Source: a virus. From it: a stretch of 64,000 bases of DNA. Below, piece after piece: positions 13,974 through 43,226 of this stretch. The notes beneath the pieces were generated by a model. That model searched no databases. It was not told the DNA's origin and worked only from the letters and a program-made list of their open reading frames with translations. Position 1 is the first letter of the stretch, and each line of letters starts with the position of its first letter. The position numbers were made by a program, and so were the translations under genes. The stretch spans positions 54,156 through 118,155 of IMG/VR virus record IMGVR_UViG_3300027881_000536; one strand, written 5' to 3'.

Positions 13974-14320
13974 TGCCGATGTTGAACTCAATCAAAAGGA
14001 GATTGATAGAGCATCTATCAGGTCTAGTCAATGAGTTGCATATCGGTAGTGATGGTACAGTCGCTAGTGTAGATGATGGTGGCTCTAGAACCTTGGCTAC
14101 AGTTACTCCTACTGTCAGAATTCTAGATGACAACAGCCTTCTAATCGAAGGAACTTTTGACTCTAGTCATATTTATTCCACTGATATACAAGAGGTCTAT
14201 TTACAATACAAGGATGCTACAACTGGAGAATTCATACCAGTATATCGTACAGCCTTACCAGCCTTCACTAAGGATGGGCAGAATGAAGTTAAATTTTCAT
14301 TCATACTGGAGGTAGAATGA
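13973..14320 (+). CDS. Putative tail/baseplate protein (115 aa)
   Basis: Coupled (TAATG) within the structural operon; beta-rich composition. Confidence 0.5.
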   Translation: MPMLNSIKRRLIEHLSGLVNELHIGSDGTVASVDDGGSRTLATVTPTVRILDDNSLLIEGTFDSSHIYSTDIQEVYLQYKDATTGEFIPVYRTALPAFTKDGQNEVKFSFILEVE

Positions 14321-14502
14321 TGGCTAAGAGTTACATTTCACAGAGACCTGCTAAGTTGGCTCAAGCCCGAGTCAAGAGAATGTCTCAAAAGAACCAGAAA
14401 AAGAGGAAGATGCGACAATATCGTAGGCACAGTAAAATCGGGGTGCGGCGTCCGAAGATGCGTAGGCAGATTGGATTGACTAGAGTGTCAAGGAGTAGAT
14501 AG
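14317..14502 (+). CDS. Highly basic protamine-like peptide (61 aa)
   Basis: ATGA overlap; 23 of 61 residues are K/R and there is no D or E. Confidence 0.6.
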   Translation: MMAKSYISQRPAKLAQARVKRMSQKNQKKRKMRQYRRHSKIGVRRPKMRRQIGLTRVSRSR

Positions 14503-14504
14503 AT

Positions 14505-16838: not shown

Positions 16839-16853
16839 TAAGAGGTAGAAATA

Positions 16854-20738: not shown

Positions 20739-20763
20739 TGGACAGTGAAATCATGGTGATAAA

Positions 20764-23700
20764 TTGGCAACAGATACAGACTTCAAGATAAAAAAAGGAT
20801 TGACGATTACCGATGGTGATATCACCATCAATCCTGGTCAGAAGTTAACCACTTCATCCAATGGTAATTTCACATTGGACATAGGTGGAGATTTACTCAT
20901 CTCAGCGGGAGGTACAGAGTATGGTAGATTTGAGGCTAGTGGTAGAGGACTATCAGTGGGCTCAGGCGCTGACCCAATGGCTGATTCTAAAGTGGATGTT
21001 TATGGTAGACTAGGTATATCTCTTGAGGGCGCAACTCCCTCCCAACCTGCTGATGGTAAGGGCTTGCTCTACACCAAAGCGGGTGGAGGATTATACTGGA
21101 GAAGTTACGACCAAGCAGAGAACAAACTTAGTGGCATGTCTGTCTCGACAGCGAGTGCTAGTGGTAATGGTTCACTAGCCATAGACACAGCCACAGGGGT
21201 TCTTACTTTCACACCAGCCAATGTATCAGGTGATGGTGGTGCTTCTGACATAGGTGCACTAGACGATGTTCTAATGGATGCGACTAACTTCGTTGATGGT
21301 CTTCTGATACAACCCTCATCAAACGCATCAGCACCGGGGACAGGCACTTTGTTTAGTGCCACAGGTAACACAGGTATTGGGAAGGACACCTATGCTGCGT
21401 TGACTTCAGGGACTTACAATACATCAGTAGGATATGTAGCAGGTAAGAATCTGATAGATGGCGCAAACAATGTAATGTTTGGTAAAGCCGCTGGTCAAGA
21501 AGTAACATCAGGGTCATCTAATACTGCAGTTGGCACTAATGCAGGTTTGAATATTATTGGTGGTTCTACCAACATTGCTATTGGGTCTGGTGCTGGTGAC
21601 AATATCACTAGCGGTTCACACAATGTAATGATTGGCGGAGCAGATGCTGGGAGTGCGACAGGTAATAGCCAACTAAAAATTTCTTCTGGTGACGGTGGAG
21701 TCACATGGCTTACAGGTGCAAGCGATGGAACACTTGCATTAGGAACACCTTCTGCATTAACTCTAACCAACGCAACAGGTTTAGTTGCTACGACAGGGCT
21801 AACTGCAACAGGGACCAAATCATCTTCAACATATCTTAGAGGCGACAATACTTGGGCTTCTGTTTCAAGTGGCGCTTCCACTGTTGGTGCATTAACTGAT
21901 GTGCTAATGGATGCTACTAACTTCGTTGATTCATTCCTACTCCAACCCAATAGTGACGGTTTAGCACCAACGACAGGAATACTAAGTAGTGCAAATTACA
22001 ATGTAGGTATTGGTTCAGATGTATTCAAATTCATAACAAATGGAACTCAGGATGTTGCTATTGGTCAATACTCTCAGGAAAAGATTACTTCCGGCGACTA
22101 CAATACAACAATTGGTGGTCAAACATTCAAAGAAGCAACTACTGCCGAAAAAAATACTGCATTAGGATATGCGGCACTAAGGAACACAGTAAGTAATTCA
22201 AATGTAGCAATTGGTTTCATGGCCCATCAAGGGGCTAATACAAGTGGTGGATTCAATGTAGCAATAGGCGCAAGTGCAATGTATGGTGTAAGTAGCCACG
22301 CAAAATGGAATGTAGCAATTGGTAACGAGGCTCTTGAAAATATTACTACCGGAGATTATAACATCGCCGTTGGTTACAAAGCAGGGGAGGCTCTCACAAC
22401 TGCTAATGATTCTATTCTATTGGGCAATTCAGCCGGGAAAAACATAACAGGTGGTGCGAACAATACAATAGCAATAGGAAAAGAATCCTGTTTTACCTCA
22501 ACAGGAGATGCGAATAATATAGGTATTGGGTACAGAACTCTATACTTAGCAAATGGTGGAACCTACAACATAGCAATTGGTAACATGGCTGGCGATTCCG
22601 TAACAACAGGAGATTACAATACATTGATGGGAACTTCTGCTGGTGCTACTATATCCACAGGCTCACGAAATATCGCTATTGGGTATGCGGCGGCAGATGG
22701 ATTCGACACAGAATCAGACAACATAGCAATTGGCTACGATGCAATTGGTGGTGCTGTTGCTGGTGCAGAAAAGACAATCGCAATAGGGAACTACACGCTC
22801 GATGCTTTGACGAGTGGGGATAACAACATAGCGATAGGATACGAAGCACTCACTTCTTGCACGACAGGCGGCTCAAACATAGCCATTGGAAACTACGCTA
22901 TCAACAACATGGATGCCGAGAGTCACAACTTAGCAATTGGATATACCGCATTAGGCGGGGTAATCAACGGGGCTGAATACAATGTTGCTATTGGGAATGA
23001 ATCTTTAGTTGCCGTCACAGAGGGCGACCATAACATCGCAATAGGATACCAGTCCGGCGATAACATCACGACTGGCTCTAATAATGTGGTAATAGGTAAA
23101 GCAGATGTAGCGAGTGCAACAGGTAATAACCAACTCTCAATTTCTTCAGGGGATGGCTTGGTCACATGGATTACAGGAACAAGCGCAGGTGCGGTCAATC
23201 TTCCCAATTCAATACTCACAATCGCCGGGTCTGTTGGTTCAGACGGACAGGTTCTCACTTCAACGGGTTCAGCCGTAGCATGGGAGGACGCAGGTGGTGG
23301 TGGTGCTTCTGTAATCGGTGACTTAACCGATGTATCAATGGATATTGCTAACTTCACAGATGGCTTCCTTCTTCAAACAGATAGTGACGGTTTAGCACCG
23401 ACAACAGGGACATTAAGTGCAACAACCGGAAACATAGGCATTGGAAAAGATGTATTTGCGTCAATGACTTCGGGAAGTTATAATGTAGGTTTGGGGCATA
23501 CTGCGTTAGACGCTTTAACCACCGCAACAGGAACTATCGGCATAGGATATGCCGCTTTTTCAGCAGTTACTACAAATACGCATAATGTTGGGATAGGATA
23601 TGGTGCAGGTAGGCTCGCAACAGGTGCGGGAAATATCTATCTCGGTTATTTCACAGGTGGGCAAAATGCAAACAACCTGTCTTACAATATAGGAATAGGT

Positions 23701-24915
23701 TATGCAAGCCAACTCCTTGCAACAAGTGGTTGGGGAAGAAATGTAGCGGTAGGACAAAGCACACTACGAAATAATACAAGTGGTGGCCGAATGGTTGCTA
23801 TTGGTGATGAGGCACTTTACAGTAATACTACTGCTGATGCTAACATTGGAGTAGGTTACAAAGCAGGTAGGTCAATTACTACTGGAACACGAAACATAGC
23901 AATAGGGTATCAAGCAGCAGATGGATTCGATACAGAATCAGACAACATAGCAATTGGTTACGATGCTTTAGGTGGTGCTGTTGCGGGTGGTGAGAAGAAT
24001 GTCGCTATTGGAAATTATGCTGGTGACGCTATTACGAGTGCTGATGATAACACACTAATTGGCCATCAAGCGGGAACTGACTTGAACTCAGGTGGACAGA
24101 ATACCTACATTGGATTCAAAGCAGGGCAACTTGCTACAACAGCATCCCAAAATGTTGTTATCGGTTATCATGAATATGATTCAGGGACTAAGACCGGAGG
24201 ATATAACGCTCTTGTTGGTAATAGAGTTGGAGGAAGTCTAACTAATGCAAGTTACAATGTGGCTATGGGTTACAGAACATTGGGGTCTGCATCATCAGGC
24301 GCATATAATGTGGCTTTGGGAACTTATGCGCTTTACACAGCCAATCCATCGGGTGCTATTGGTATAGGATATGAAGCCGGAAGAAGCGTTGGTGGAAATT
24401 ATGGTATTCACATAGGCTATGAAAGTGGCCCTCAATCTGGTTCAAATACTGGTGAAAAGAATATAGCAATCGGTTATCAATCAGGAGATAATATCACAAG
24501 CGGTTCAAACAATGTAATCATTGGAAATGCTGATGTAGCAAGCGCAACAGGTGATGACCAACTTTCTATATCATCAGGAGATGGTAGCCCTGTTTGGATT
24601 ACAGGTGACTCAAATGGAACTGTTAAACTCAATCAATTAGCAGATGTTGTAGCAGTATCAAGTAATACACAATTAACACCGGGTCAATCAGGTTCCTATG
24701 TTTATTGGACAGCAGGAACTTGCACTCTACCTGTTAGCGCAACAGTAGGGCAACAATTTACAGTGTTCAATAATACAGGCTCAAGTGCTACTGTGGGTCT
24801 TGGTTCAGGTAACACTATGGCTACTAATTGGGCTGCTAATGCGGCAGTAGCAGATAATGATGCCACAGCCTATGTATGTGTAGCATCAACAGATTGGGTT
24901 CAGGTGGGAGCATGA
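20764..24915 (+). CDS. Tail fibre/adhesin protein 3 with YadA-head-like (NxAIG) beta-roll repeats (1383 aa)
   Basis: TTG start; N-terminal DFKIKKGL; dozens of N(I/V)AIGYxA repeats organised into three larger modules. Confidence 0.75.
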   Translation: MATDTDFKIKKGLTITDGDITINPGQKLTTSSNGNFTLDIGGDLLISAGGTEYGRFEASGRGLSVGSGADPMADSKVDVYGRLGISLEGATPSQPADGKGLLYTKAGGGLYWRSYDQAENKLSGMSVSTASASGNGSLAIDTATGVLTFTPANVSGDGGASDIGALDDVLMDATNFVDGLLIQPSSNASAPGTGTLFSATGNTGIGKDTYAALTSGTYNTSVGYVAGKNLIDGANNVMFGKAAGQEVTSGSSNTAVGTNAGLNIIGGSTNIAIGSGAGDNITSGSHNVMIGGADAGSATGNSQLKISSGDGGVTWLTGASDGTLALGTPSALTLTNATGLVATTGLTATGTKSSSTYLRGDNTWASVSSGASTVGALTDVLMDATNFVDSFLLQPNSDGLAPTTGILSSANYNVGIGSDVFKFITNGTQDVAIGQYSQEKITSGDYNTTIGGQTFKEATTAEKNTALGYAALRNTVSNSNVAIGFMAHQGANTSGGFNVAIGASAMYGVSSHAKWNVAIGNEALENITTGDYNIAVGYKAGEALTTANDSILLGNSAGKNITGGANNTIAIGKESCFTSTGDANNIGIGYRTLYLANGGTYNIAIGNMAGDSVTTGDYNTLMGTSAGATISTGSRNIAIGYAAADGFDTESDNIAIGYDAIGGAVAGAEKTIAIGNYTLDALTSGDNNIAIGYEALTSCTTGGSNIAIGNYAINNMDAESHNLAIGYTALGGVINGAEYNVAIGNESLVAVTEGDHNIAIGYQSGDNITTGSNNVVIGKADVASATGNNQLSISSGDGLVTWITGTSAGAVNLPNSILTIAGSVGSDGQVLTSTGSAVAWEDAGGGGASVIGDLTDVSMDIANFTDGFLLQTDSDGLAPTTGTLSATTGNIGIGKDVFASMTSGSYNVGLGHTALDALTTATGTIGIGYAAFSAVTTNTHNVGIGYGAGRLATGAGNIYLGYFTGGQNANNLSYNIGIGYASQLLATSGWGRNVAVGQSTLRNNTSGGRMVAIGDEALYSNTTADANIGVGYKAGRSITTGTRNIAIGYQAADGFDTESDNIAIGYDALGGAVAGGEKNVAIGNYAGDAITSADDNTLIGHQAGTDLNSGGQNTYIGFKAGQLATTASQNVVIGYHEYDSGTKTGGYNALVGNRVGGSLTNASYNVAMGYRTLGSASSGAYNVALGTYALYTANPSGAIGIGYEAGRSVGGNYGIHIGYESGPQSGSNTGEKNIAIGYQSGDNITSGSNNVIIGNADVASATGDDQLSISSGDGSPVWITGDSNGTVKLNQLADVVAVSSNTQLTPGQSGSYVYWTAGTCTLPVSATVGQQFTVFNNTGSSATVGLGSGNTMATNWAANAAVADNDATAYVCVASTDWVQVGA

Positions 24916-28224: not shown

Positions 28225-28340
28225 TGTATTTCCTCCGTTAATGATAGGAATAGTGCGTCGGGGTCTATCTTGTAGTAATCACACATCGTTAGATAGAACT
28301 CCTTGAAGAAGTCGATTGGTGCGTCCTCTAAGAGTTCCAT
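28221..28340 (-). CDS. Acidic micro-protein (39 aa)
   Basis: MELLEDAPIDFFKEFYLTMCDYYKIDPDALFLSLTEEIQ fills the gap exactly and overlaps both neighbours. Confidence 0.55.
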   Translation of the reverse strand: MELLEDAPIDFFKEFYLTMCDYYKIDPDALFLSLTEEIQ

Positions 28341-28936
28341 CACCACATCACCTCTATGTCATCAATGATACCAGTCTTTGCATTGCGAGCCTTAACGAAG
28401 CCTTCATCCCTACCATAGTGTAGTAGGTCGTAGACTAGTTGAGTATCTTTGAGACAATACTCTGCTACCTCGTTGTAGCGACCTTCTTCCCAAGCCTTGG
28501 GAGCATCTGCACTTTCCATCAGTTTCTCACTACCTAGAGTGTGTTTACAGACATCTCCGAGGGAGACTGGAGTACCAGAAGAGCGAAGGATGGCTGAGGT
28601 GTCTATGACATGCTCCTTGTAATTGCTCATCAATTCCCCTGCATAGTGGCAGTCTAGTGCATCTCTTAGGACTGGTAGGTCGAAGCCCATTAGGTTGTGA
28701 CCTATGACTCTACCCCCACCCTCTACATGTTTTTGCAGGTGTTCTCCTAAGTTCCTAGGGTGGAGTGGATGAGTAACAACTCCCTCTAATTCTATGTCCT
28801 TCTTGGAGAACACATGCCCTTCGTCACCATCCCAAGTGGCTACTACCGTGGGCTCAAACAAGTGAGTGTTATCCCAACCACCCACTTGCCATGAGTAGTT
28901 GGATGTCTCAATGTCTAGGGACATTATCTTACTCAT
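28340..28936 (-). CDS. DEDD-family 3'-5' exonuclease (RNase H-like, YprB-type)
   Basis: LDIET (ExoI), GHNLMGFDLPVL (ExoII), YCLKDTQL (ExoIII). Confidence 0.85.
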   Translation of the reverse strand: MSKIMSLDIETSNYSWQVGGWDNTHLFEPTVVATWDGDEGHVFSKKDIELEGVVTHPLHPRNLGEHLQKHVEGGGRVIGHNLMGFDLPVLRDALDCHYAGELMSNYKEHVIDTSAILRSSGTPVSLGDVCKHTLGSEKLMESADAPKAWEEGRYNEVAEYCLKDTQLVYDLLHYGRDEGFVKARNAKTGIIDDIEVMW

Positions 28937-30457: not shown

Positions 30458-31204
30458 CTAAGAATCTCGAGAACTTCGACGCTCGATGTGGACTGGTTCC
30501 TCACTGGTGAGAGCCTCTAGAACCCTAGCCCTAAGCACCTTACCCATGCGTGGTACTCCCCTGAGACAGTCCCCACAAGCAGCCTCCTCTAGGCTACCAC
30601 AAGCACCGATAATCTTGTCCACCATCTCATCACCTATGCCTGGGATGGTACGGAGCATGTCTACTCTGACATCGTTGCTTGATACCCTACGGATAGCCTG
30701 TGCGCCGTGTCTACTGGCACTCTTGTAGGTCTTCTCATGTAGACCTACCATGAAGTGTGATGCCTCCATCAGGTTAGGTGCACGGTATACTAGGCACCCA
30801 AAGTCTGCAGCGATGCGGGCTAAGCCTCCTGCTACCTGCTTTGTTGCAGCACTGAAATTGATGGAGCCTCCTCTTGCTTGGGCCTGCTTGACATAGTCTG
30901 CTACTGGACCCCACACTACTACTCCATACATATCTACATTGGCGTCGAGATTATCTAACTGCCTCATTAGATGCCCACTCCTAAGTGATTCTAGGAAGTC
31001 CCCCACACTCTTGGCTTCCATATACCATTCTCCACACTTGTAGTCCCCAACAACTAGATGTTCTCTAACTATGGAGAGGGGTGGGCTCTTCTTGTGAGCC
31101 CTGCGTTCCACTGCATCGAACAGTGGACCACGCTCGTTGGTGTCTATCACTAGTGGTCTTACAGACTTCCTGTCCCGTCCCATAACTGGCACCTCCCGAG
31201 GCAT
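30458..31204 (-). CDS. XPF/ERCC4-family structure-specific nuclease with HhH2
   Basis: LVIDTNE, GDY, EAKSVGDF (ERKxxxD-like), C-terminal IPGIG and VPRMG HhH motifs. Confidence 0.85.
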   Translation of the reverse strand: MPREVPVMGRDRKSVRPLVIDTNERGPLFDAVERRAHKKSPPLSIVREHLVVGDYKCGEWYMEAKSVGDFLESLRSGHLMRQLDNLDANVDMYGVVVWGPVADYVKQAQARGGSINFSAATKQVAGGLARIAADFGCLVYRAPNLMEASHFMVGLHEKTYKSASRHGAQAIRRVSSNDVRVDMLRTIPGIGDEMVDKIIGACGSLEEAACGDCLRGVPRMGKVLRARVLEALTSEEPVHIERRSSRDS

Positions 31205-32232
31205 AAACCGCCAGCCTCGAGAGAAGCACAGTGTTTTTGGTATCCTTTGTCCACTATGCTCCTAACATGGTAGCGAGTCACATTTTCATCGTAGTCAGCC
31301 CATTGAAGGGTGGCTATGTATCTTGATATGGATTCAGCGTGACCTTCACGCATCTCCTGTGTCGTTCGTTCTACAGGTAGAAAGTTCCTGAGTCTGGAGG
31401 CTAGGTAAATCACTAGAGATGCCCGAGCATCATGTGGTGGGTTGCTTCCCACTTGACAGGCTGCTTCTACTAGACAGGGGAGAATCCTCACCCCTTCCAT
31501 CTCTACTGTATCGAATTGTAATGCTGGGCCTGATGTATCGAAGCGTGTCTTCTTCACATGCTCGAGAGGTAGGTCTATTCCGTTAGTCCCGTAGGTGAAG
31601 TGGCCTTTACGGTGTGCTTCTGCTTTCTCACACACATCATCCCAGGACCACTTGAGTATCTCTGCACTCCTAAGTGGTATACTCCATCTCCCTACATGTT
31701 GCTTGGCATTGTAGGAGTTGGGAATACGGATGAGTCTAGCCATGTCGAAAGGTACAGTAGGGTCCATGCAGGTTAGGTCTAGACTATCCTTCCAGTCATT
31801 GATGACCTTCTTACCTGCAGCCTTGATGAGAGAGACCTCACTACCAGTTGCTGGCCGGTGTGTCTTGGAGAGTTGAATCCAGATATGAAATCCATTTCCG
31901 CTGAACCATACAGCATGGCAGACATCTTTGTCCATCAAGACTTGATGTAGTCTGCGTACCTGCTCCATCACTTTGTCCCCATCTACATCGAGAACCATGC
32001 TACCTTTCCTTTCCTTCTTGTCGAAGTCCAGCACGAAGTTCCTCACTATTGCGGTGTTGTATTCAGCACGCTTACCACTAGTCTTGACTGCCCTGTAACC
32101 ATACACACTGGTGTAGGCACACTGACTGTTTCTAAGTGAAGTCCAGTATCGTTCTAGTTCCTCAGGGTTGTGGACTACCTTACGGAATAGTCCTACCTCA
32201 CGAGGGAAGTCGAAATCAAGGACTGAATTCAT
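31159..32232 (-). CDS. Archaeo-eukaryotic primase, PriS-PriL fusion
   Basis: LDFD (motif I), SGNGFH (motif II), RLIRIPNSYN (motif III); C-terminal PCL...H...C...LC..C Fe-S cluster pattern of the PriL-CTD. Confidence 0.9.
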   Translation of the reverse strand: MNSVLDFDFPREVGLFRKVVHNPEELERYWTSLRNSQCAYTSVYGYRAVKTSGKRAEYNTAIVRNFVLDFDKKERKGSMVLDVDGDKVMEQVRRLHQVLMDKDVCHAVWFSGNGFHIWIQLSKTHRPATGSEVSLIKAAGKKVINDWKDSLDLTCMDPTVPFDMARLIRIPNSYNAKQHVGRWSIPLRSAEILKWSWDDVCEKAEAHRKGHFTYGTNGIDLPLEHVKKTRFDTSGPALQFDTVEMEGVRILPCLVEAACQVGSNPPHDARASLVIYLASRLRNFLPVERTTQEMREGHAESISRYIATLQWADYDENVTRYHVRSIVDKGYQKHCASLEAGGLCLGRCQLWDGTGSL

Positions 32233-33731: not shown

Positions 33732-36050
33732 TTACCACCAACCATACGCCTTGGGACGGGGTGCTCCAAGAGCACCGTCTATGTCCCAACCAAGGGTAGT
33801 GTAAACACTATCTAACTTGGCCTTCAGCATTTTCTGGAGTATTACATCTGAATCTAGCACATAGCCCTCTAACTCAGAGGGTTCTCGATAGGCTATGATG
33901 TTGGGAATGCCCTGCACATAGGTCCAGGGAACTGAGTCCCCCTTCCCAAACTTGGGGCCTTTGGAATCGTCGTTGTAGTTTGTTGCTGCTTTAGCAGCAC
34001 CACCCAACACCTTGTAGTCTCGGAGTGCCATCCCTAACCTAGTGGTCAGGGTCACCTCCTTGAGAGGGACTTCACCCTCGCGTATGGACATGGCTATCGG
34101 ACGGACATAGGATTCTACCTCACCCTCATCTGCTCCGCTACACACCATGTTGAACACCTCTTTCTGCACCTTCTTGGATAGGGGTGCTGCGTTGGAGGAT
34201 TTCATCTCAAAGCCTGCCACTTTTAGTTCACCGCTCATCTTCTTACCTACATACCTGTTCTTCTTGACCAGCAACCAGTAAGGCATCCAGTCTTCTAGTT
34301 CTACGGACAACATCTTGTTGCCAGTGGCCTCCTGCACAGTCTTCGTGATTTTGTCGGCCAGCATCTCAGCGTCCTCGTAAGGGACCTTGATGAATACTGA
34401 GTCAGTGTGACCATAGAGGCACTCGTAGCCATTGCTAGTGGTGACTTGGTCCAGTAGGTGGATGCACCTCCTCCCCTCGTGGGTGATGGTGTGTGCTATG
34501 TCTAGGTCAGCCCAGCCATAACCACCATGTGCGGTCATGCCATAGAGTGAGGCCATGACCCTCTTAATCGCCATCTGTGTGGTGTTCCAAGCACCGCGTT
34601 CTTCCTCGGTTTCAGCGTGTCGCATCTTGAACTTACATTCATCTCGATAGGCGAACAGATACTCTACTACACTAGGTAGCAAACCCTGCTCACTCTGGTC
34701 CCAGAAGGTGCCGTTATCGAGTTGGAGTATGTTCTCACCAGGGCCGTCCCTCTTGGTCTCATAAGAGAGGTTGTTGCCTAAAATGAGAGATGCATACAGC
34801 CCCTTGTAATCAAGCAGGCCAACGCCTTGATGCAAACCAGTTACAAGATTCAGTCCTACTTCTGCACCCTTGAGTGAGCCACTGTCACCTCTGGCTCTGG
34901 TTGGAGCCTTCTTGTCTGTCCTCCTTGAGAGTAGACCCCTAGCGAAGTTAGTCACATTACATGCTGAGGGTAGAGTGACTCCGCAGAGTCTGACCATCTG
35001 TATGTAGAAGTCGGTGACATTCTTGGCCTCATCTATCCCTCTGAGTAGATGGGTGTCTAGTAGACAGTAGTCCACGAAGTCACCCCAGTGTTTGTACCAT
35101 CCATTGTGGACATCCATGCCCTCTATATCCTCAGTGAGTTTGGAACCTAGGCCTAGCGTCTCTGCTATGTCGTTGAGTTTGAGGGATGGTAGTTGACCAC
35201 CCCCACTGTCTTTCCATACTCGCTCGAATCCTGTGCCACTGCTGGCCTGGGCTGCAGTATCGAACTGCCATCTACCTATGATGGGTTGGTCTGTTGGGTC
35301 ATACCTGTCCTTACCCTTCCTGAATCTCCTGACCTTTCCCACTGGACTCATTCGCTCAGGGTATGGAATCCTGTTGATGAGGTGAGGTAGGTCTGCGAAT
35401 GTCCCCGCGTGTGCAATTAGCATGTCGGGGTCGCGCTCACGCATGAATGATATGAAGGCCTCATGGAGTTCATGTTCTGAGTTGAAGAATCTTAGTTCAT
35501 ACTCTACATCACGAGCCATTCTCATTTGTGTGTCACCATGAGGTATGTATTCCCACACATTGGTGCGTTCGTCAGCCCAAGCAAAGACCACTGGCGTGTC
35601 TAAGTCGCTGTCTATCACAGCGATGACTGTGGTGAATGGGTCATCACCAGTGTCCCATTCTATGTCATACCACCACTTTCGTGGCTTCCAGTCTGGCATA
35701 ACTTGGACATTGTCTATCAGCCAGCGGTCTGTGAATCTAATATCAGCCTCGTATGTGTTGCTGAATTGCTCCCTCATCCTTGTAATCTCAAAGGGAGACT
35801 GTGCCTCTACTTTCACCAGTGGTGTGCCGTCGAGGCCAACGGCTTGCTCCTCGTAGATGACTCTGCTTTCTGGGAATCTAGTCATCACCCTCCTGAACTG
35901 GAAGTCAGGAGAGTTCTTTGGCACCCAGAAGTATGGCTTGTAACTCCTATCTGTGTGCTCGATGAGGTTACCCTCCTCATCACGGTATCGTGAGTATATG
36001 ATGGGTTGCTCACCATTCTCATAGTAATCATCGACTATCATTCTGAACAC
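33732..36050 (-). CDS. polB: Family B DNA polymerase
   Basis: Exo DIEWD, YCLLD; polymerase DYKGLYAS, KRVMASLYG, YGHTDS, KKNRY. The start may be the ATG at 36041. Confidence 0.97.
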   Translation of the reverse strand: MFRMIVDDYYENGEQPIIYSRYRDEEGNLIEHTDRSYKPYFWVPKNSPDFQFRRVMTRFPESRVIYEEQAVGLDGTPLVKVEAQSPFEITRMREQFSNTYEADIRFTDRWLIDNVQVMPDWKPRKWWYDIEWDTGDDPFTTVIAVIDSDLDTPVVFAWADERTNVWEYIPHGDTQMRMARDVEYELRFFNSEHELHEAFISFMRERDPDMLIAHAGTFADLPHLINRIPYPERMSPVGKVRRFRKGKDRYDPTDQPIIGRWQFDTAAQASSGTGFERVWKDSGGGQLPSLKLNDIAETLGLGSKLTEDIEGMDVHNGWYKHWGDFVDYCLLDTHLLRGIDEAKNVTDFYIQMVRLCGVTLPSACNVTNFARGLLSRRTDKKAPTRARGDSGSLKGAEVGLNLVTGLHQGVGLLDYKGLYASLILGNNLSYETKRDGPGENILQLDNGTFWDQSEQGLLPSVVEYLFAYRDECKFKMRHAETEEERGAWNTTQMAIKRVMASLYGMTAHGGYGWADLDIAHTITHEGRRCIHLLDQVTTSNGYECLYGHTDSVFIKVPYEDAEMLADKITKTVQEATGNKMLSVELEDWMPYWLLVKKNRYVGKKMSGELKVAGFEMKSSNAAPLSKKVQKEVFNMVCSGADEGEVESYVRPIAMSIREGEVPLKEVTLTTRLGMALRDYKVLGGAAKAATNYNDDSKGPKFGKGDSVPWTYVQGIPNIIAYREPSELEGYVLDSDVILQKMLKAKLDSVYTTLGWDIDGALGAPRPKAYGWW

Positions 36051-37995: not shown

Positions 37996-38183
37996 TGTTG
38001 GAACCCCCTATAGTGATTCTCACGAGCAGATTCCCACATATGCCTTATTTCGGCAGTCATATCAAGTGACTCATCTTTGCTGATATTTGGGTCTTTAGCA
38101 TTCTCACGAATCCACTTAGCGATGGTTTTGTCATCATCACCATTGTGTAGCATGATATCTATGTTCTTGAAGAACCCCATCAC
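37992..38183 (-). CDS. Hypothetical protein (63 aa)
   Basis: ATGA overlaps on both sides. Confidence 0.6.
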   Translation of the reverse strand: MMGFFKNIDIMLHNGDDDKTIAKWIRENAKDPNISKDESLDMTAEIRHMWESARENHYRGFQQ

Positions 38184-39526
38184 TCTACCCCCTTGAACTG
38201 GTCTAGTGAGGTATTACCGCCTTCACCAGCAGGTATCGCTAGTCTCGGTGGAGCATATACACCCAAAGCCCTCATTGTGGGTACTTCCTGTTTACCATCT
38301 TCTACAGCCCTTAGTCCCAATCTACCGAAAATGTAGACTGTTGACTTCACTGCATAAGGCTTCCAACCCTTTCGACCCTTGTAGTCGAATACATGACAGT
38401 CTTGACCTAAGAATCCATGAACTCTGATAGAGACTTCTTGTTTCCACATATTGTCCGGGAATTCTCTCTGTAGAGCAAATGATGACACTCTCATGGTGTA
38501 ATTGACACCTGCTGGGTCATATTCGCTCTCGTATCCTGTCTGGTTGATATCTGTCACTTTTCCTTTGATACAAACCAAAGGACCGATGGGGTTGTCGAAC
38601 CCTTCAATGGTCTCAGACTCTGAGCGATAGACATCCATTAGGTCGGATAGGTCTGATACATAACAGTCCATCCCACCCATCAACAGGTCACCCTTGAGGT
38701 ATTCCCTGTCGTCCTCGCTCACGAACTCCTTGTTGTAGTGGATTGACTTGAAGAAATTGCTCATTCCTCGCCACATATCCTCCCAACCGGGATTCACATT
38801 CTCTGGTTGAGGCCTTACTTTGACAGTGCAAGGTTCACCGAATACTACATGTTGAGATACACTCAATTCAGTAGAGCCACTCACATCAATTCTGAACAGT
38901 TCCATCTCATCCTCAAACCTTTCAGGGGTATTTCCATAGAATCGGTAGGTTCTGCTGAACAGGTAGGGTGAGATAGGTTCACCATGTCTTGCCCAGTCAG
39001 GGTTTTCTTGTAGGATGGCTAATGTCATCCCACTGTCCCTAACTAGGAACCAAGGGTCATTATCCTCGTCAAACCTCTCTTGGGTCGACGCTACTATTCC
39101 CATAGCCTTCTCAAGCATCCATACCTCGTTTTCTACGAAGGCTCTGGCTACTGTGCCTTTCTCGATAGCAGCACCTAAGTCTTCTTTGGCGAATTGTATA
39201 GCATTCTCTCTCACATTCTCTCTCTTGTCTCGTATCTTGGGTTCTACACCTACGAAGCATCCCACTAACTCGGTGGAACTCCCTCCCGGTGTGCTCATCA
39301 CCCTTCTCTCAACCACGAAGGTCTCAGCGGCATCCACTAGGAAATCGTCGTCCTCTTCGTGGGTGTTAACGATTCCGAGATGTTCCTCGATGTAAGCGAG
39401 GTATTGTTCCACGGCCTTGTGTTGGCTGATACTATGATGTTCAGCATACCAATGTAGTCGTTCTAACACTTCTTCTGGCAATTCTTCTTTGTTTTCATTT
39501 TTCTTTTTCAGCGTGCTCATTTTCAC
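38180..39526 (-). CDS. Putative OB-fold ssDNA-binding (RPA-like) protein
   Basis: C-terminal OB-like pattern (VCIKGKVT...YTMRV...VYIFGRL) and terminal NTSLDQF; replication context. Confidence 0.45.
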   Translation of the reverse strand: MKMSTLKKKNENKEELPEEVLERLHWYAEHHSISQHKAVEQYLAYIEEHLGIVNTHEEDDDFLVDAAETFVVERRVMSTPGGSSTELVGCFVGVEPKIRDKRENVRENAIQFAKEDLGAAIEKGTVARAFVENEVWMLEKAMGIVASTQERFDEDNDPWFLVRDSGMTLAILQENPDWARHGEPISPYLFSRTYRFYGNTPERFEDEMELFRIDVSGSTELSVSQHVVFGEPCTVKVRPQPENVNPGWEDMWRGMSNFFKSIHYNKEFVSEDDREYLKGDLLMGGMDCYVSDLSDLMDVYRSESETIEGFDNPIGPLVCIKGKVTDINQTGYESEYDPAGVNYTMRVSSFALQREFPDNMWKQEVSIRVHGFLGQDCHVFDYKGRKGWKPYAVKSTVYIFGRLGLRAVEDGKQEVPTMRALGVYAPPRLAIPAGEGGNTSLDQFKGVE

Positions 39527-40436
39527 TCCTCATTCTCTTCTCTTCTCTCCCGTTAGGGAGGGACAGAGACCCCACGAACCAGTCAATAAACCCTCTGTTA
39601 TCTAGAGGCCATTGGTGGGTCGAAAGGACTGCGTCCCCCCATACCTTGGAGTAGTGGTGGAACCTATCTGGCTCCATATCTAAGTCGCGCACTCTATCGT
39701 GCAACATGTTGAGTATAGTCATCATATTCCTGCCTGGTTGGTTGAGTGAGTAGAGTTCTTCTCTCAATGATACCCAATCTCCACCAGCGATGGAAAGGGA
39801 GGCTTCAGACAGCATCTCTGCTTTGATGGTGGCCATATTTTCGAGTTCTCTAGCGTCCTGCACAGTTTGGGCCGCTATGCCGAGACTGCGAAGGTCTCCA
39901 TTGAAAGCCATACCTATCTTGCCGATATTGTAGCCGTTCCACCCATATGTTGACTTACATAGGTGTCTGAAGTTCTTTTGCAGAAACGCATGCACATGGG
40001 TGGTCCCGTATGGCGCGAAATGTAGTGTGTGGCATCGCGAGCGCAACGCGGGTATGATGTTAGCCTCTTCGTTGGCTGTGAGTATGAACAGCGCATGACC
40101 TTTCTCTATGGTCCTGCGTAGGGCGTCTTGGGCCTGTCTTGTGAGACCATCTGCCTCATCGAGTAGTATGATGGTGGTATCACTGTAGCCACGCTGTGTT
40201 GCTACCTGCTTCACACGCGTGCGTATGAAGTCTATACCGCGCTCATCAGAGGCATTGAATTCGTGCACATCAGCATCTAGGAACTGACCTACTGCTAGTG
40301 CTGTAGAGGTCTTACCAGTGCCTGGAGGCCCTACGAATAAGAGGTCAGGGACATTGTTTGACTCACATAATTCTCTCACTTGGCAGATGGGATGGGTGGA
40401 ATCATCACTCCCAATCAAGTCCTCGAATGTCAACAT
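39495..40436 (-). CDS. rfcS: Replication factor C small subunit (clamp loader)
   Basis: GPPGTGKT, EFNASDERGID, LLDEADGLT, ALRSRC. Confidence 0.95.
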   Translation of the reverse strand: MLTFEDLIGSDDSTHPICQVRELCESNNVPDLLFVGPPGTGKTSTALAVGQFLDADVHEFNASDERGIDFIRTRVKQVATQRGYSDTTIILLDEADGLTRQAQDALRRTIEKGHALFILTANEEANIIPALRSRCHTLHFAPYGTTHVHAFLQKNFRHLCKSTYGWNGYNIGKIGMAFNGDLRSLGIAAQTVQDARELENMATIKAEMLSEASLSIAGGDWVSLREELYSLNQPGRNMMTILNMLHDRVRDLDMEPDRFHHYSKVWGDAVLSTHQWPLDNRGFIDWFVGSLSLPNGREEKRMRSENEHAEKEK

Positions 40437-40462: not shown

Positions 40463-40468
40463 CTTATA
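40463..40468 (-). promoter_or_regulatory. Candidate TATA box for rfcS
   Basis: Minus-strand TATAAG lies ~27 nt upstream of the ATG at 40436, followed by a GGAGGGG RBS. Confidence 0.3.
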
Positions 40469-40823
40469 CTATTTCCTCGAACTGTCTCATAAGTTCGGAG
40501 ATGTCACCATGATTCATCTTACGAGCAGTAGGGGCATCCATAGTGATTAGCAATTTCTGTAGGTTACCCCCATCCTTCACTGCCTCCCATACGGGTGCTA
40601 GAAGTGAGAGGACCTTCTGTATCTGCTCCTTGTCCCTCAAGACTCTACCATGCACACCCTTTGTTGCAAGCCATAGATTCAGTTCGGGTTCGTCTTCCAT
40701 ACTTGTATACACCTTTCGATGCACTTTGTATCCTAGTTTCCGCTTGGGGGAGAAGTGAATGCTGGCTTGGAAGCGAGCATCTCGGGCTAGCCATGCTAGG
40801 AAGAAATCATCGTGCCTGTCCAT
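40464..40823 (-). CDS. Degenerate LAGLIDADG-fold protein (119 aa)
   Basis: FLAWLARDARF resembles the LAGLIDADG helix, followed by GYKV...strand...EL..WL..KG as in single-motif homing endonucleases. Confidence 0.45.
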   Translation of the reverse strand: MDRHDDFFLAWLARDARFQASIHFSPKRKLGYKVHRKVYTSMEDEPELNLWLATKGVHGRVLRDKEQIQKVLSLLAPVWEAVKDGGNLQKLLITMDAPTARKMNHGDISELMRQFEEIV

Positions 40824-42150
40824 TACCTTCCCTCTCTATGATATCGCCGTATTGGAGTGCATCACTCATCCCTAGCCCTGTGTCTATACGGACGAGATAT
40901 GCTCCTTCGAGTCTGTGGTCCCTGCAACGCAGGGCGTGAAACAGCCCCACTAGGGGTATTTCGAGTTCTGTCCATACCTTCCTTCTACAGGCTTCCGTGA
41001 GTATGGAGTTATCAGGGAGATTTTCCCTCTTGACATTAGCATACCCCACATGAATGGGGTCAAAACCGTCTAGAGCCTCTATCCTCAAGTCTATCCACTC
41101 ACCATTCTTCTGCTCTTTGGCTTGGGTTATGAGGAGTGGCATCTCATAGATTCTTTTGGGCTGGATGAAGCCCCCTCTGTGCTGACCATGAATGTGTGGT
41201 TTGTCTCCATCAATGAGTCTGAGCACTTCCCCATCTTCCATAGCCTGTGAGAGTGTCCTGAGATGAGCAGCATCTCTTATTCTCTGAGGTTTTACTGACC
41301 TTGCTTGGTATTCCATTTCCCACTGGTCGGGGTTGGCTTCTGTGTGGAGCCACTCTATCACATCCCCCCCTTCGTCTACCAAAGCCACACAGTCTCCTCC
41401 TATGGCTAGGTCTGCTGGTGCGTTAGGTAGTATCTCACCCATGCCGTCATACACGAAGATGTCATCTTGGTATTGGTGCGCGTACCTGCGTGGACCTGAT
41501 ACAATCTCGTAGTAAGTGTTCAAGAATGGGACAGACCAGTATTTCCAGGGACCGAATGATGGGGCCCTGAATGGGTGGCCTGGTTGAATGCGAAATTCAT
41601 CAGAAAGAGTACCTTCTATAGCCCTACCAAGGACTACTGCGATATTCTCCACTGATAGAGCACTTGTAAGCCTCTCTGGGGGGTACTTACCTCCACCATG
41701 TGCAACGGCTCTGAGCAGCCTCTTACGGGGCAAAACTGGCCTTTCTCCGAGGGCTCTACACCATAGGGCTTCTGCAGACCTCTTATCCATCTTAGCGAAG
41801 ATGGCTTTTATGTCTGGAGCAGTCTCTATGACTCTCAATTCTGAGACACAGGATAGGGCTTCTGGGATTGTCATGTTGTCCTCACATTCATCTGGTGATT
41901 CTGATACCAATGCTGGGACCAATGGAGCCCCTTCAATGAGTTCAAACTCCTCGGGAAACATACCTAGTCCTCTGTGTAGAGCACTCATTATGTGCTCAGG
42001 CTTGAGAATGGCTGGCCCATAGAGGAGAGAACAGAACTCTTCAAGTTCTCCTTTGTTCTCTACCAGAAAGTTATACAGTAAACTCTCTTGTTCTCTGCTC
42101 TCCGCTGTATTGACAGCAGTAACTAAGATAGCAGCGTCATCTATTTTCAC
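40807..42150 (-). CDS. ATP-dependent DNA ligase homologue lacking catalytic motifs (pseudo-ligase, 447 aa)
   Basis: DBD, adenylation and OB domains appear in the expected order, but motif I reads EIVSGPR (no K). GTG start at 42150 (MKIDD). Confidence 0.7.
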   Translation of the reverse strand: MKIDDAAILVTAVNTAESREQESLLYNFLVENKGELEEFCSLLYGPAILKPEHIMSALHRGLGMFPEEFELIEGAPLVPALVSESPDECEDNMTIPEALSCVSELRVIETAPDIKAIFAKMDKRSAEALWCRALGERPVLPRKRLLRAVAHGGGKYPPERLTSALSVENIAVVLGRAIEGTLSDEFRIQPGHPFRAPSFGPWKYWSVPFLNTYYEIVSGPRRYAHQYQDDIFVYDGMGEILPNAPADLAIGGDCVALVDEGGDVIEWLHTEANPDQWEMEYQARSVKPQRIRDAAHLRTLSQAMEDGEVLRLIDGDKPHIHGQHRGGFIQPKRIYEMPLLITQAKEQKNGEWIDLRIEALDGFDPIHVGYANVKRENLPDNSILTEACRRKVWTELEIPLVGLFHALRCRDHRLEGAYLVRIDTGLGMSDALQYGDIIEREGNGQAR

Positions 42151-42301
42151 GCTTCTTTCTCTCCTTCTGCTTTCTATCCAAGTAACATTTCCCACAGTTT
42201 ATTGCGTTAGCGAGGTTCCCTTTAGTATTCAATTTGTTGAGCACTACCCCACAATTATCGCAATGCGTGCGACGGTGTCTTAACCCGCCCACGCGTATCA
42301 C
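42137..42301 (-). CDS. Zn-finger micro-protein (54 aa), missed by the ORF track
   Basis: GTGA overlap; ...HCDNCG...NCGKCY... followed by a basic tail. Confidence 0.65.
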   Translation of the reverse strand: MIRVGGLRHRRTHCDNCGVVLNKLNTKGNLANAINCGKCYLDRKQKERKKRENR

Positions 42302-42540
42302 TCAGGCGCGGGCGTGAGCGCCCACACGCATATGCTATAACTGCCGCTCAGCGTGCCTGCGCGTCTTGTGTCACTAACTTTCACAATCTGCTTATCTTTG
42401 GCCAGCACATTCCCCAATTGCTGGGGAGTTGTGCCGTGCCGCATAGTGCTGTTTATGTATTCCAATATCTGTTGGGTATTACACTCACCATTTGTTGCTA
42501 GGTATCTCTTAATGTTCTGTCTTAGGCGTGTAGTCCTCAT
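42298..42540 (-). CDS. DUF3860-family winged-helix DNA-binding protein
   Basis: INSTMRHGTTPQQLGNVLAKDK...SG.Y.IC.W closely matches, from memory, the DUF3860 (PDB 2OD5) signature. Start at MRTTRL via ATGA overlap. Confidence 0.85.
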   Translation of the reverse strand: MRTTRLRQNIKRYLATNGECNTQQILEYINSTMRHGTTPQQLGNVLAKDKQIVKVSDTRRAGTLSGSYSICVWALTPAPE

Positions 42541-43226
42541 TCCTCTTCCTCTCCTTTTCTTCTTACACACATGAGTCCCCTCATGTGTAGGGGGACAGGT
42601 TTGCCGCCCCATTCGCTACCAAGGGGCTGAGCATATAGGTCTTCCCAATATCCTTTATCTACTGCTTCCACCATTTGCTCAGGTTGGATTGGGAACCACC
42701 CTCCCCAAGTATAGAAGAGGGTCTCCCCCGCGACTAGATAGTAGTCATCGGGACTGAGATATATCACTTCCTCACAATCACAAGTGACTCCTACTACCCA
42801 TCTATCGGCGAGGGTTTCCTCCCCACTCTCGTCTACGAATTGGTTATTCCCTAGAACCTCCCATTGAGCATTCCCCAAGTCCATGTTAACCACTGGAGTT
42901 TCATTACAATGGGGGCATAGCCATGATTGAGCCTCCTTCTGCATCATCTCAGCGGCTAGTTGAGGGTCATCGGGGATGATTTTGGTTTGCTCCATTTCTA
43001 GATGCCAGCCTATCATTTGCAACACGACTTCTACTCTGCGTGCAGCCATCTCTGCTCTCTCGGTTCTGGTGAGGAGGGTGAGAGTGGCGTCCCCCGTCTT
43101 GCGAAACGCCATCTCTCCCTCCATCCAGTCTTGCCCCATCTCTAGGTTCTCAACGACACCCCTAGTCCATTCTAGGTCTTCTTCTGTGGGCTCCCATGAT
43201 GAAGGTGTAAGATGGTCATTCACCAT
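42537..43226 (-). CDS. Hypothetical Zn-binding protein (~229 aa)
   Basis: CPHC...CDC; start placed at MVNDHL. Confidence 0.6.
   Translation of the reverse strand: MVNDHLTPSSWEPTEEDLEWTRGVVENLEMGQDWMEGEMAFRKTGDATLTLLTRTERAEMAARRVEVVLQMIGWHLEMEQTKIIPDDPQLAAEMMQKEAQSWLCPHCNETPVVNMDLGNAQWEVLGNNQFVDESGEETLADRWVVGVTCDCEEVIYLSPDDYYLVAGETLFYTWGGWFPIQPEQMVEAVDKGYWEDLYAQPLGSEWGGKPVPLHMRGLMCVRRKGEEEE

What the first reader, a model, noticed from the sequence alone, without database searches (positions are those of the whole stretch)
40807..42150. Catalytically dead ATP-dependent DNA ligase kept as an intact gene
Seen: the whole archaeal-ligase architecture is traceable: DBD (LLYG; AEALWCRALG), 'PGHPF' before motif I, and OB (PLLITQA...DG...VG...LVRID). 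Motif I ExKxDGxR reads EIVSGPR (~41484-41510; adenylated Lys lost, Asp to Ser), and motifs IV/V EGxxxK...WxKxK read GEVLRLID...FIQPK. The 447-codon frame is intact and coupled. Known: the motif I Lys is essential for ligase-AMP formation. Inference: a pseudo-enzyme repurposed as a nick-binding clamp, a scaffold for the clamp and loader, or a decoy or dominant-negative inhibitor of host ligase or nick-sensing defence. Automated pipelines would annotate it simply as a ligase.
Basis: partly seen in the sequence, partly recalled or inferred. Interest (0 to 1): 0.72.

Follow-up and report, generated by a model that had tools for sequence, protein, structure and literature searches.

The report
Lysine-less DNA ligase homolog in archaeal virus replisome
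A marine archaeal virus keeps, at the head of its DNA-replication operon, a strongly conserved protein that folds like a complete DNA ligase but lacks the lysine every such ligase needs, so it most likely acts as a non-enzymatic replisome part and the virus probably depends on its host to seal DNA nicks.

Summary
ORF 40807-42150 (-) is a real 447-codon gene with an SD-like site, and its stop overlaps the next gene's start.

- **Fold:** its AlphaFold model (pLDDT 84) matches three-domain ATP-dependent DNA ligases (Foldseek E 4e-14; VIA Z 16 over 419 residues).
- **Motif I:** a profile-profile alignment with 31 archaeal ligases is colinear. It puts Ile231 at the motif I lysine and Ser233 at the aspartate.
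- **Other motifs:** the motif IV lysine, the first motif V lysine and the motif VI basic residues are also gone.
- **Family-wide loss:** among 105 distinct relatives the nucleophile position is I/V in 91. Lys occurs in 10, all in one shallow subclade. No lysine column exceeds 64%.
- **Selection:** dN/dS is 0.03-0.08.
- **Context:** in all loci that reach the neighbouring genes (70 + 36 viral contigs) the gene precedes RFC, an RPA-like protein and PolB.
- **No canonical ligase:** none was found in the seven at least 91%-complete genomes searched.

One claim fails. Pfam, PHROGs and PDB sequence searches see nothing, and databases call the protein hypothetical, so pipelines would not call it a ligase.

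Best reading: a ligase-derived pseudoenzyme serving as a DNA-binding or scaffolding replisome subunit. The role is inferred, not shown. The closest precedent is the inactive ligase domain of poxvirus A20. I rate it a new variant of a known kind. This scan had already flagged the same stretch from an overlapping window.

The parts
40807..42150 (-). Ligase-like gene (LIGL): 447 codons plus stop, GTG start at 42148-42150
   Evidence: ORF list and translation. Homolog N-termini align to this start. dN/dS is 0.06-0.08 against L002-L004.
42161..42166 (-). Shine-Dalgarno-like AAGGAG, 10 nt upstream of the GTG start
   Evidence: Read directly from the sequence.
41581..42150 (-). N-terminal helical domain (aa 16-205), equivalent to the ligase DNA-binding domain. 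Carries the family-invariant E99-S100 and W145.
   Evidence: AF2 helices 18-194. VIA matches: LigIV DBD 7d9k Z 9.8 and Lig1 DBD 8b8t Z 8.9. hhalign columns 16-205. Invariants.
41152..41580 (-). Nucleotidyltransferase-fold domain (aa 206-348) with degenerate motifs I, III, IIIa, IV and V
   Evidence: VIA match to the Lig3 NTase 10ye_L: Z 12.9, rmsd 2.4 over 143 residues. Motif table.
41476..41508 (-). Motif I remnant, aa 230-240. I231 replaces the AMP-accepting Lys and S233 replaces the Asp. G234, R236 and H240 are retained.
   Evidence: hhalign mapping to the K/D/G/R/H columns that are 31/31 conserved in archaeal ligases. Family column 231 reads I49 V42 K10 T2 L1.
41152..41232 (-). Motif IV/V remnants, aa 322-348. 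E323 is kept; the motif IV Lys is I328; the first motif V Lys is Q345; the second is K347 (Arg in most relatives).
40810..41151 (-). OB-fold domain (aa 349-462). Motif VI is degenerate: its basic residues are lost. The invariant D376-G377 and the C-terminal G442/D445/Q448 patch lie here.
   Evidence: AF2 beta-barrel 349-437. hhalign maps motif VI to 429-441. Invariants.
40464..40823 (-). 119-aa gene of unknown function. Its ATG overlaps the LIGL stop by 17 nt. It follows LIGL in 70/70 loci of the near clade but was detected in almost none of the deep clade.
   Evidence: No family hit. The Atlas search gave only weak leads.
39495..40436 (-). RFC-like AAA+ clamp-loader subunit
   Evidence: Pfam AAA 3e-16 and DNA_pol3_delta2 1e-11. 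Adjacent in all loci.
38180..39526 (-). 448-aa multi-OB-fold protein, probably the viral RPA/SSB
   Evidence: AF2 pLDDT 86. Foldseek hits POT1, SSB and CST at E 4e-5. VIA Z 10.6, rmsd 1.9, to an archaeal RPA domain, 3e0e.
33732..36050 (-). Family B DNA polymerase, in the same co-directional gene block as LIGL
   Evidence: Pfam DNA_pol_B 1e-34. Synteny.

Best explanation
The gene encodes a descendant of an archaeal/eukaryotic-type (Lig1-like) ATP-dependent DNA ligase. It keeps the whole DBD-NTase-OB body but has lost the chemistry.

Shown:
- Three-domain ligase fold and colinear profile homology.
- No lysine at the motif I nucleophile position, and no conserved lysine anywhere in the family.
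- The motif I Asp, the motif IV Lys, the first motif V Lys and the motif VI basic residues are lost.
- Strong purifying selection.
- A fixed position as first gene of the LIGL-(o119)-RFC-RPA-like-o320-o251-PolB block in two deep viral clades.
- No canonical ligase in the near-complete genomes searched.

Inferred:
- It cannot self-adenylate, so it is not a ligase.
- It is kept as a non-catalytic subunit of the viral replisome. It would use the ligase body to grip DNA (nicks or primer-template ends) and/or to bridge polymerase, clamp loader, clamp or SSB. The new invariant surface patches would be the contact sites: E99-S100 in the DBD, D376-G377 and G442/D445/Q448 in the OB domain.
- The virus would then rely on the host ligase to seal Okazaki fragments.

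The pocket keeps an Arg (R236), three acidic residues (268, 281, 323) and a basic residue at 347. Non-covalent binding of a nucleotide or a 5'-phosphate end therefore remains possible.
For: - **Fold:**. All top PDB and viral hits are DNA ligases: 3gde E 4e-14; 3l2p Z 16.1 over 419 aa; NTase alone Z 12.9 at rmsd 2.4.
- **Homology and motif mapping:**. hhalign E 2.9e-5 over 427 columns. Shared relics are the proline before motif I, G-x-R-x3-H, E323, R299, G341 and an LRAP-type motif VI remnant.
- **Loss is family-wide and old:**. Lys sits at the nucleophile position in only 10 of 105 sequences, all in one shallow nested subclade. Deep branches carry I, V, L, T or Y.
- **Selection:**
- **Operon context:**
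- **No other ligase:**
  - PF01068, PF09414 and PF04679 were searched in the window's own 118-kb genome, rated 100% complete.
  - PF01068 was searched in six related genomes rated 91-100% complete.
  - The only hits lie inside giant structural-module ORFs, where the motif I nucleophile position is also not Lys.
- **Precedent:** the poxvirus A20 middle domain is an inactive ligase (NTase + OB) inside the polymerase processivity factor (PMC11142717).
Against: - No experiment exists, and no model coordinates were available for placing residues around AMP. Motif assignment rests on profile alignment plus secondary-structure register.
- hhalign probability is only 74%.
- The protein is acidic (net -23; family mean -16) and has no conserved PIP box. 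Neither DNA binding nor clamp binding is supported directly.
- Retention of the acidic trio and R236 may mean that some catalytic or ligand-binding function survives.
- Operon membership shows co-expression, not physical interaction.
- Absence of a canonical ligase is shown only for the genomes searched.
Confidence: 0.6

Rival explanations
1. It is still an enzyme acting on nicks. It might use an unconventional nucleophile (for example the near-invariant H240). It might seal pre-adenylated (AppDNA) nicks or remove the adenylate from them. Or it might work with AMP supplied in trans.
For: The pocket keeps R236 (88/105), acids at 268, 281 and 323 (98-101 of 105) and a basic residue at 347 (90/105). 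These viruses have no canonical ligase in the genomes searched, yet carry an otherwise rich replisome. From my own knowledge of Chlorella virus ligase work: motif I Lys mutants of real ligases can still perform step 3 on pre-adenylated nicks.
Against: The motif IV Lys and the first motif V Lys, which contact the adenylate in real ligases, are hydrophobic here. The motif VI basic residues needed for step 1 are gone. H240 is equally invariant in true ligases (31/31), where it is not the nucleophile. Only 8 of 61 ligase-invariant columns are kept.
Confidence: 0.1
2. It is a counter-host factor. It would act as a decoy or dominant-negative that occupies nicks or binds the host's PCNA or ligase partners, either shielding viral DNA nicks from host ligase or nick-sensing defences or inhibiting host replication.
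For: A full ligase body without chemistry is what a competitive nick or partner binder would look like. The family is restricted to viruses: no relative turned up in 185,579 prokaryote species genomes.
Against: Anti-host genes are usually variable and found in accessory regions. This gene is core, syntenic and as conserved as RFC, and it sits inside the replication operon in two deep clades. No PIP box was found.
Confidence: 0.15
3. It is a decaying former ligase gene under relaxed selection, in effect a pseudogene that is still open.
For: Catalytic motifs are lost and sequence similarity to ligases has dropped below the Pfam thresholds.
Against: dN/dS is 0.03-0.08 in every informative pair. 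The frame is intact at 433-489 aa in more than 100 contigs. Fifteen columns are invariant in all 105 sequences and five more are at least 93% conserved. The AF2 model is confident.
Confidence: 0.01
4. The ligase likeness is a coincidence of fold, and the protein belongs to some other family.
For: There is no HMM hit to any ligase family. Identity to ligases is 10-15%.
Against: All three domains match in the right order, over 420-440 residues, to many ligases. Profile alignment is colinear end to end and lines up ligase-specific relics.
Confidence: 0.02

Closest known systems
Archaeal/eukaryotic replicative ATP-dependent DNA ligases (Lig1 type; e.g. PDB 3gde, 2cfm, 2hiv, 1x9n, 3l2p)
   Same: The same three domains in the same order (DBD, NTase, OB), with end-to-end structural and profile alignment. 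Shared relics are the proline before motif I, G-x-R-x3-H of motif I, the motif IV Glu, the Arg after motif IIIa, and the Leu-Arg-x-Pro start of motif VI in most relatives. Like real replicative ligases, it is encoded among replication genes.
   Different: The motif I Lys and Asp, the motif IV Lys, the first motif V Lys and the motif VI Arg/Lys are all missing. It is about 100 residues shorter and lacks the Gly-rich DBD loops. It falls below every ligase HMM threshold. It has new invariant patches that ligases lack.
Middle domain of poxvirus polymerase processivity factor A20 (vaccinia) / A22 (mpox)
   Same: A virus-encoded, catalytically inactive DNA-ligase module (NTase + OB) kept as a structural part of the viral DNA polymerase machinery (PMC11142717). 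This is the best functional precedent.
   Different: The poxvirus module is a domain inside a larger protein, has no ligase DBD and bridges UDG and the polymerase. The structural match here is weak (8wpf_B Z 5.5), so the loss of activity is probably independent. The magrovirus protein is stand-alone and keeps all three domains.
Snurportin-1 m3G-cap-binding domain
   Same: An NTase fold of the ligase/capping-enzyme superfamily that lost the lysine and became a pure ligand binder. It matches the NTase domain here (1xk5 Z 10.1, rmsd 3.2, 138 residues).
   Different: It derives from the capping-enzyme branch, has no DBD or OB domain, is eukaryotic and functions in nuclear import. The ligase NTase matches better (Z 12.9, rmsd 2.4).
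Ligases reported in magroviruses (Philosof et al. 2017, PMC5434244; ICTV Apasviridae profile, PMC12999244)
   Same: Group A magroviruses have a thermosome and SNF2, like this virus. They are reported to carry one ligase in the replicative block and one in the structural module, which are the two places where ligase-like sequences occur here.
   Different: The papers treat them as ATP-dependent ligases and do not mention a missing lysine in the text I could read. Here both lack Lys at the nucleophile position. I could not confirm that the published 'thermostable-type' ligase is this family: no supplement is held, and the GenBank records ON649702 and OR863078 are not in the collections.

Membership tests
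ATP-dependent DNA ligase (covalent nucleotidyltransferase superfamily, Lig1 type) | Three-domain DBD-NTase-OB fold | tested here: met
   AF2 pLDDT 84. Foldseek 3gde E 4e-14. VIA 3l2p Z 16.1 over 419 residues.
ATP-dependent DNA ligase (covalent nucleotidyltransferase superfamily, Lig1 type) | Motif I lysine (KxDGxR) that accepts AMP | tested here: not met
   I231 aligns with the Lys that is 31/31 conserved in archaeal ligases. The family column reads I49 V42 K10 T2 L1, and no Lys column exceeds 64%.
ATP-dependent DNA ligase (covalent nucleotidyltransferase superfamily, Lig1 type) | Motif I Asp, Gly and Arg | tested here: not met
   The Asp position is S, R or K. Gly (84/105) and Arg (88/105) are largely kept.
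ATP-dependent DNA ligase (covalent nucleotidyltransferase superfamily, Lig1 type) | Motif III and IIIa acidic/aromatic residues | tested here: inconclusive
   The motif III Glu aligns with D268 (D/E in 101/105) and the motif IIIa Asp with E281 (E/D in 100/105). The motif IIIa Phe is replaced by V, I or L.
ATP-dependent DNA ligase (covalent nucleotidyltransferase superfamily, Lig1 type) | Motif IV EGxxxK and motif V (W/M)xKxK lysines | tested here: not met
   E323 is kept. The motif IV Lys is I, V, L or T. The first motif V Lys is V, L or I. The second is R or K.
ATP-dependent DNA ligase (covalent nucleotidyltransferase superfamily, Lig1 type) | Motif VI basic residues in the OB domain (needed for adenylation) | tested here: not met
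   In the window protein the motif reads L-E-G-A-Y ... D-T-G-L. The family has Tyr, Asp and Leu at the second Arg, third Arg and Lys positions.
ATP-dependent DNA ligase (covalent nucleotidyltransferase superfamily, Lig1 type) | Scores above curated HMM thresholds (PF04675 / PF01068 / PF04679) | tested here: not met
   No ligase family reaches even E 1. None is found in 10 distant relatives. A family profile searched against PDB sequences finds no ligase.
ATP-dependent DNA ligase (covalent nucleotidyltransferase superfamily, Lig1 type) | Self-adenylation and nick sealing | not testable with these tools
   Needs protein biochemistry.
Inactive ligase-like scaffold modules (poxvirus A20/A22 type) | Ligase NTase+OB fold without catalytic residues, encoded by a virus | tested here: met
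   The precedent is described in PMC11142717.
Inactive ligase-like scaffold modules (poxvirus A20/A22 type) | Common descent with, or specific similarity to, A20/A22 | tested here: inconclusive
   8wpf_B scores only Z 5.5 over 118 residues. Real ligases score far higher, so an independent origin is likely.
Inactive ligase-like scaffold modules (poxvirus A20/A22 type) | Physical bridging of the polymerase and a DNA-binding processivity subunit | not testable with these tools
   Only operon linkage with PolB, RFC and the RPA-like gene is available.

The most novel reading that the evidence does not exclude
The protein is not a passive scaffold. It would be a new kind of lysine-independent nick-processing factor. 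Its retained Arg/acid pocket would bind a nucleotide or a 5'-phosphate/5'-adenylate end non-covalently. In one version it seals or de-adenylates pre-adenylated nicks made by another enzyme. In another it marks Okazaki nicks and hands them to the host ligase. Either way, a whole lineage of abundant marine archaeal viruses would replicate with two lysine-less 'ligases' and no self-adenylating one.
Probability: 0.12. Interest if true: 0.85.

Novelty: new variant of a known kind. Interest (0 to 1): 0.6.

Why it matters
Magroviruses are among the most abundant archaeal viruses in the surface ocean. They are cited as carrying a nearly self-sufficient archaeal-type replisome that includes ATP-dependent ligases (PMC5434244, PMC12999244).

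In this lineage the replication-block 'ligase' has no adenylatable lysine, and the second ligase-like domain in the structural module does not have one either. No canonical ligase was found in seven genomes rated at least 91% complete. If the inference holds, nick sealing is the step these viruses leave to the host, which would be a concrete and testable dependency.

It would also be a clean natural case of a complete three-domain ligase turned into a pseudoenzyme and kept under strong selection in a replisome operon. It parallels the inactive ligase module of the poxvirus processivity factor and probably arose independently. The protein is invisible to HMM-based annotation, so the family (more than 100 contigs here) is currently labelled hypothetical.

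Tried and rejected
**Sequence searches that found no ligase**
- Pfam at E up to 1, PHROGs, phmmer against PDB and a family profile against PDB all found none. Only the fold search and profile-profile comparison revealed the homology.
- tblastn against GenBank phages gave no match.
- A scan of 185,579 prokaryote species genomes found no relative.

**Looking for a canonical ligase**
- A regex for motif I plus motif III found none in the first 71 fetched loci (L001-L072) and the own genome, nor in the 42 loci of the second clade.
- PF09414 and PF04679 gave no hit in the own genome.
- PCNA_N and XPG_I Pfam models also gave no hit. This is uninformative, because these viral replication proteins are known to be very divergent.

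**Published magrovirus ligases**
- I tried to fetch them for direct comparison. ON649702 and OR863078 are not in the collections, and no supplement of PMC5434244 is held. I used 31 archaeal ligases from the genome search instead.

**Other dead ends**
I used the search for related loci for the deep clade instead.
- Three large related contigs (L024, L033, L034) are not held as whole records.
- A PIP-box search found no conserved motif outside structured elements.
- ESM Atlas searches for the 448-aa and 119-aa neighbours gave only unnamed viral clusters.
- Net charge gave no useful signal, because the whole proteome is acidic.
- The idea that a lysine-bearing subclade is ancestral was rejected. 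It is shallow and nested among I/V lineages on a quick tree whose careful search did not finish.
- Model coordinates are not exposed, so I could not list residues within reach of AMP by superposition.
Full report
**Gene and setting.** The window is the right-hand 64 kb of a 118,155-bp viral record rated 100% complete. The minus-strand block from about 26.7 to 46 kb encodes:
- a thermosome subunit;
- a weak DnaQ-like exonuclease;
- an ERCC4 nuclease;
- an AEP-like primase;
- a Cas4-like nuclease;
- PolB;
- an RFC-like AAA+ protein;
- a DUF3860 protein;
- an SNF2 helicase.

A thermosome plus SNF2 are the traits Philosof et al. give for group A magroviruses of Marine Group II (Poseidoniales) archaea (PMC5434244). 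I therefore treat the virus as group-A-like; this is an inference.

The ORF in question is 40807..42195 (-) at its longest. All homologs begin at the residue encoded by the GTG at 42150, and an AAGGAG sits 10 nt upstream of it. The first 12 residues of the long form are disordered in the model. The next gene's ATG overlaps the stop by 17 nt.

**Is it ligase-like?** Sequence methods say nothing. There is no Pfam hit better than E 0.2, no PHROG and no PDB sequence match, even with a 29-sequence profile. Structure says yes.
- An AlphaFold2 model built on 29 homologs (pLDDT 84) has a helical domain (about 16-205), an alpha/beta domain (206-348) and a beta-barrel (349-450).
- Foldseek's 50 best PDB hits are all ATP-dependent DNA ligases: A. 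fulgidus 3gde at E 4e-14, plus Pyrococcus and Thermococcus ligases and human Lig1, Lig3 and Lig4.
- An independent all-against-all aligner gives Z 16.1 over 419 residues to Lig3-DNA. The NTase domain alone gives Z 12.9 at rmsd 2.4 over 143 residues, and the DBD alone Z 9.8.
- In the viral structure library the top named hits are viral ligases, including that of a haloarchaeal tailed virus.

**Residue-level mapping.** I took 31 archaeal ligases from genomes found with PF01068. I aligned them and ran hhalign against a 39-sequence family alignment. The result is one colinear alignment: residues 16-457 against 2-556, E 2.9e-5, probability 74%.

| Ligase motif (31/31 conserved) | Window protein / family |
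|---|---|
| Motif I Lys | I231 |
| Motif I Asp | S233 |
| Motif I Gly, Arg, His | kept: G234, R236, H240 |
| Motif III Glu | D268 |
| Motif IIIa Asp | E281 |
| Motif IV Glu | kept: E323 |
| Motif IV Lys | I328 |
| Motif V first Lys | Q345 (V/L in most relatives) |
| Motif V second Lys | K347 (Arg in most relatives) |
| Motif VI basic residues | Glu/Arg, Tyr, Asp and Leu |

Only 8 of 61 ligase-invariant columns are retained. The secondary-structure register agrees with the alignment. I231 lies in strand 227-233, three residues before the G234 turn, and is followed by strand 237-242, as in motif I of real ligases. I had no model coordinates, so no superposition on an AMP complex was possible.

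**Clade-wide loss and selection.**
- The protein collection holds 42 relatives of about 445 aa, none with a Pfam domain and none named other than 'hypothetical'.
- An exhaustive HMMER search adds a deeper clade of about 460-490 aa, and no longer or fused form.
- In 105 distinct sequences from both clades, the nucleophile column reads I49, V42, K10, T2, L1. No column anywhere exceeds 64% Lys.
- The ten Lys-bearing sequences form one shallow group nested among I/V lineages on a quick ML tree. The deep branches carry I, V, L, T or Y, so Lys there is derived (the careful tree search did not finish).
- dN/dS by Nei-Gojobori is 0.06-0.08 between the window gene and its three closest relatives, and 0.03-0.16 in other informative pairs.
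- Fifteen columns are invariant in all 105 sequences and five more are at least 93% conserved. Many lie outside the former active site: E99-S100 and W145 in the DBD, D376-G377 and G442/D445/Q448 in the OB domain. This is the pattern expected for a protein selected for new contacts.

**Context.**
- In all 70 IMG/VR loci of the near clade, wherever the contig reaches, the order is (SNF2)-o255-LIGL-o119-RFC-o448-o320-o251-PolB-Cas4-like-AEP-like-ERCC4, all on one strand.
- The 36 new loci of the deep clade keep LIGL-RFC-o448-o320-o251-PolB-Cas4-AEP-ERCC4.
- I folded o448. It is a multi-OB protein resembling RPA, SSB and POT1, so it is probably the viral ssDNA-binding protein.
- The ligase-like gene is thus the first gene of a core replisome block.
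- No relative was found in 185,579 prokaryote species genomes.

**Is there a real ligase elsewhere?**
- In the own genome, PF01068 gives a single 16-bit hit near the C-terminus of a 2,395-aa ORF in the structural half, outside the window. PF09414 and PF04679 give nothing.
- Six related genomes rated 91-100% complete have either no hit or only the same kind of weak hit (22-26 bits) inside 1,800-1,950-aa ORFs. A seventh related record (G002, 74% complete) shows only the same kind of weak hit, in a frame cut by the contig end.
- In five of these viruses the motif I nucleophile position of that second domain is Met, Met, Ile, Trp and Trp.
- So neither ligase-like element of this lineage has the lysine, in the genomes searched.

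**What it most likely does.** The chemistry of covalent nucleotidyltransferases needs the motif I lysine; this is established knowledge of the superfamily. A family with no conserved lysine cannot be a ligase in that sense. Strong constraint, core status and operon position point to a structural or DNA-binding role in replication. The nearest precedent is the inactive ligase (NTase + OB) middle domain of the poxvirus processivity factor A20/A22 (PMC11142717). Its weak match here (Z 5.5) suggests convergence rather than common descent.

The retained R236, acidic trio and basic 347 leave room for non-covalent binding of a nucleotide or a 5'-phosphate end. That is why I give a residual-enzyme or ligand-sensor rival about 10% and an anti-host decoy role about 15%. 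Direct support for DNA or clamp binding is lacking: the protein is acidic and has no conserved PIP box.

**Known or new.** The papers I could read list ATP-dependent ligases among magrovirus replication genes. For group A they describe one in the replicative block and one in the structural module (PMC5434244; PMC12999244). They do not mention a missing lysine. I could not check whether their replicative-block ligase is this family.

Ligase homology may therefore already have been seen by profile methods. The lysine-less state, its age, the selection on it and the lack of any canonical ligase in near-complete genomes appear not to be described. I rate it a new variant of a known kind (ligase-derived pseudoenzyme in a viral replisome), with interest 0.6.

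Noticed in passing
Outside the window: G000:C1:30522-37709 (+), locus L001:1-2757 (protein P0067); relatives L072, L165-L168: A second ligase-like NTase+OB module sits at the C-terminal end of a 2,395-aa ORF in the structural half of the genome. It gives only weak PF01068 (16-26 bits) and snurportin cap-binding-domain hits. In five viruses its motif I nucleophile position is Trp, Trp, Ile, Met and Met, so it also lacks the lysine.
   Followed up: partly
window 38180-39526 (-): The 448-aa gene after RFC folds confidently (pLDDT 86) into several OB folds resembling RPA, SSB and POT1. It ends in a conserved acidic/aromatic tail (…TSL-x-QF…) that looks PIP-like. It is probably the viral ssDNA-binding protein and currently has no family annotation.
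   Followed up: partly
window 40464-40823 (-): A 119-aa gene is translationally coupled to the ligase-like gene (17-nt overlap). It is present in 70/70 loci of the near clade but was detected in almost none of the deep clade's loci. No family hit; the ESM Atlas gave only weak LAGLIDADG-like leads (score 0.83).
   Followed up: partly
window 1-12207 (+), continuing upstream to G000:C1:51060: A single open frame of 5,100 codons runs into the window. The same genome holds other giant ORFs of 3,038 and 2,395 codons. None of the large plus-strand ORFs 12207-24915 has a Pfam hit.
   Followed up: no
window 31159-32232 (-) and 28340-28936 (-): The highly conserved 357-aa gene gives only a weak AEP-primase Pfam hit (E 0.004). 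The 198-aa gene gives weak 3'-5' exonuclease hits (E 0.04-0.08). This fits the published remark that magrovirus replication proteins are very divergent.
   Followed up: no
window 42298-42612 (-): The gene just upstream of the ligase-like gene is a clear DUF3860 protein (Pfam E 2e-30). By tblastn it is present in only 13 of the 70 near-clade loci.
   Followed up: no
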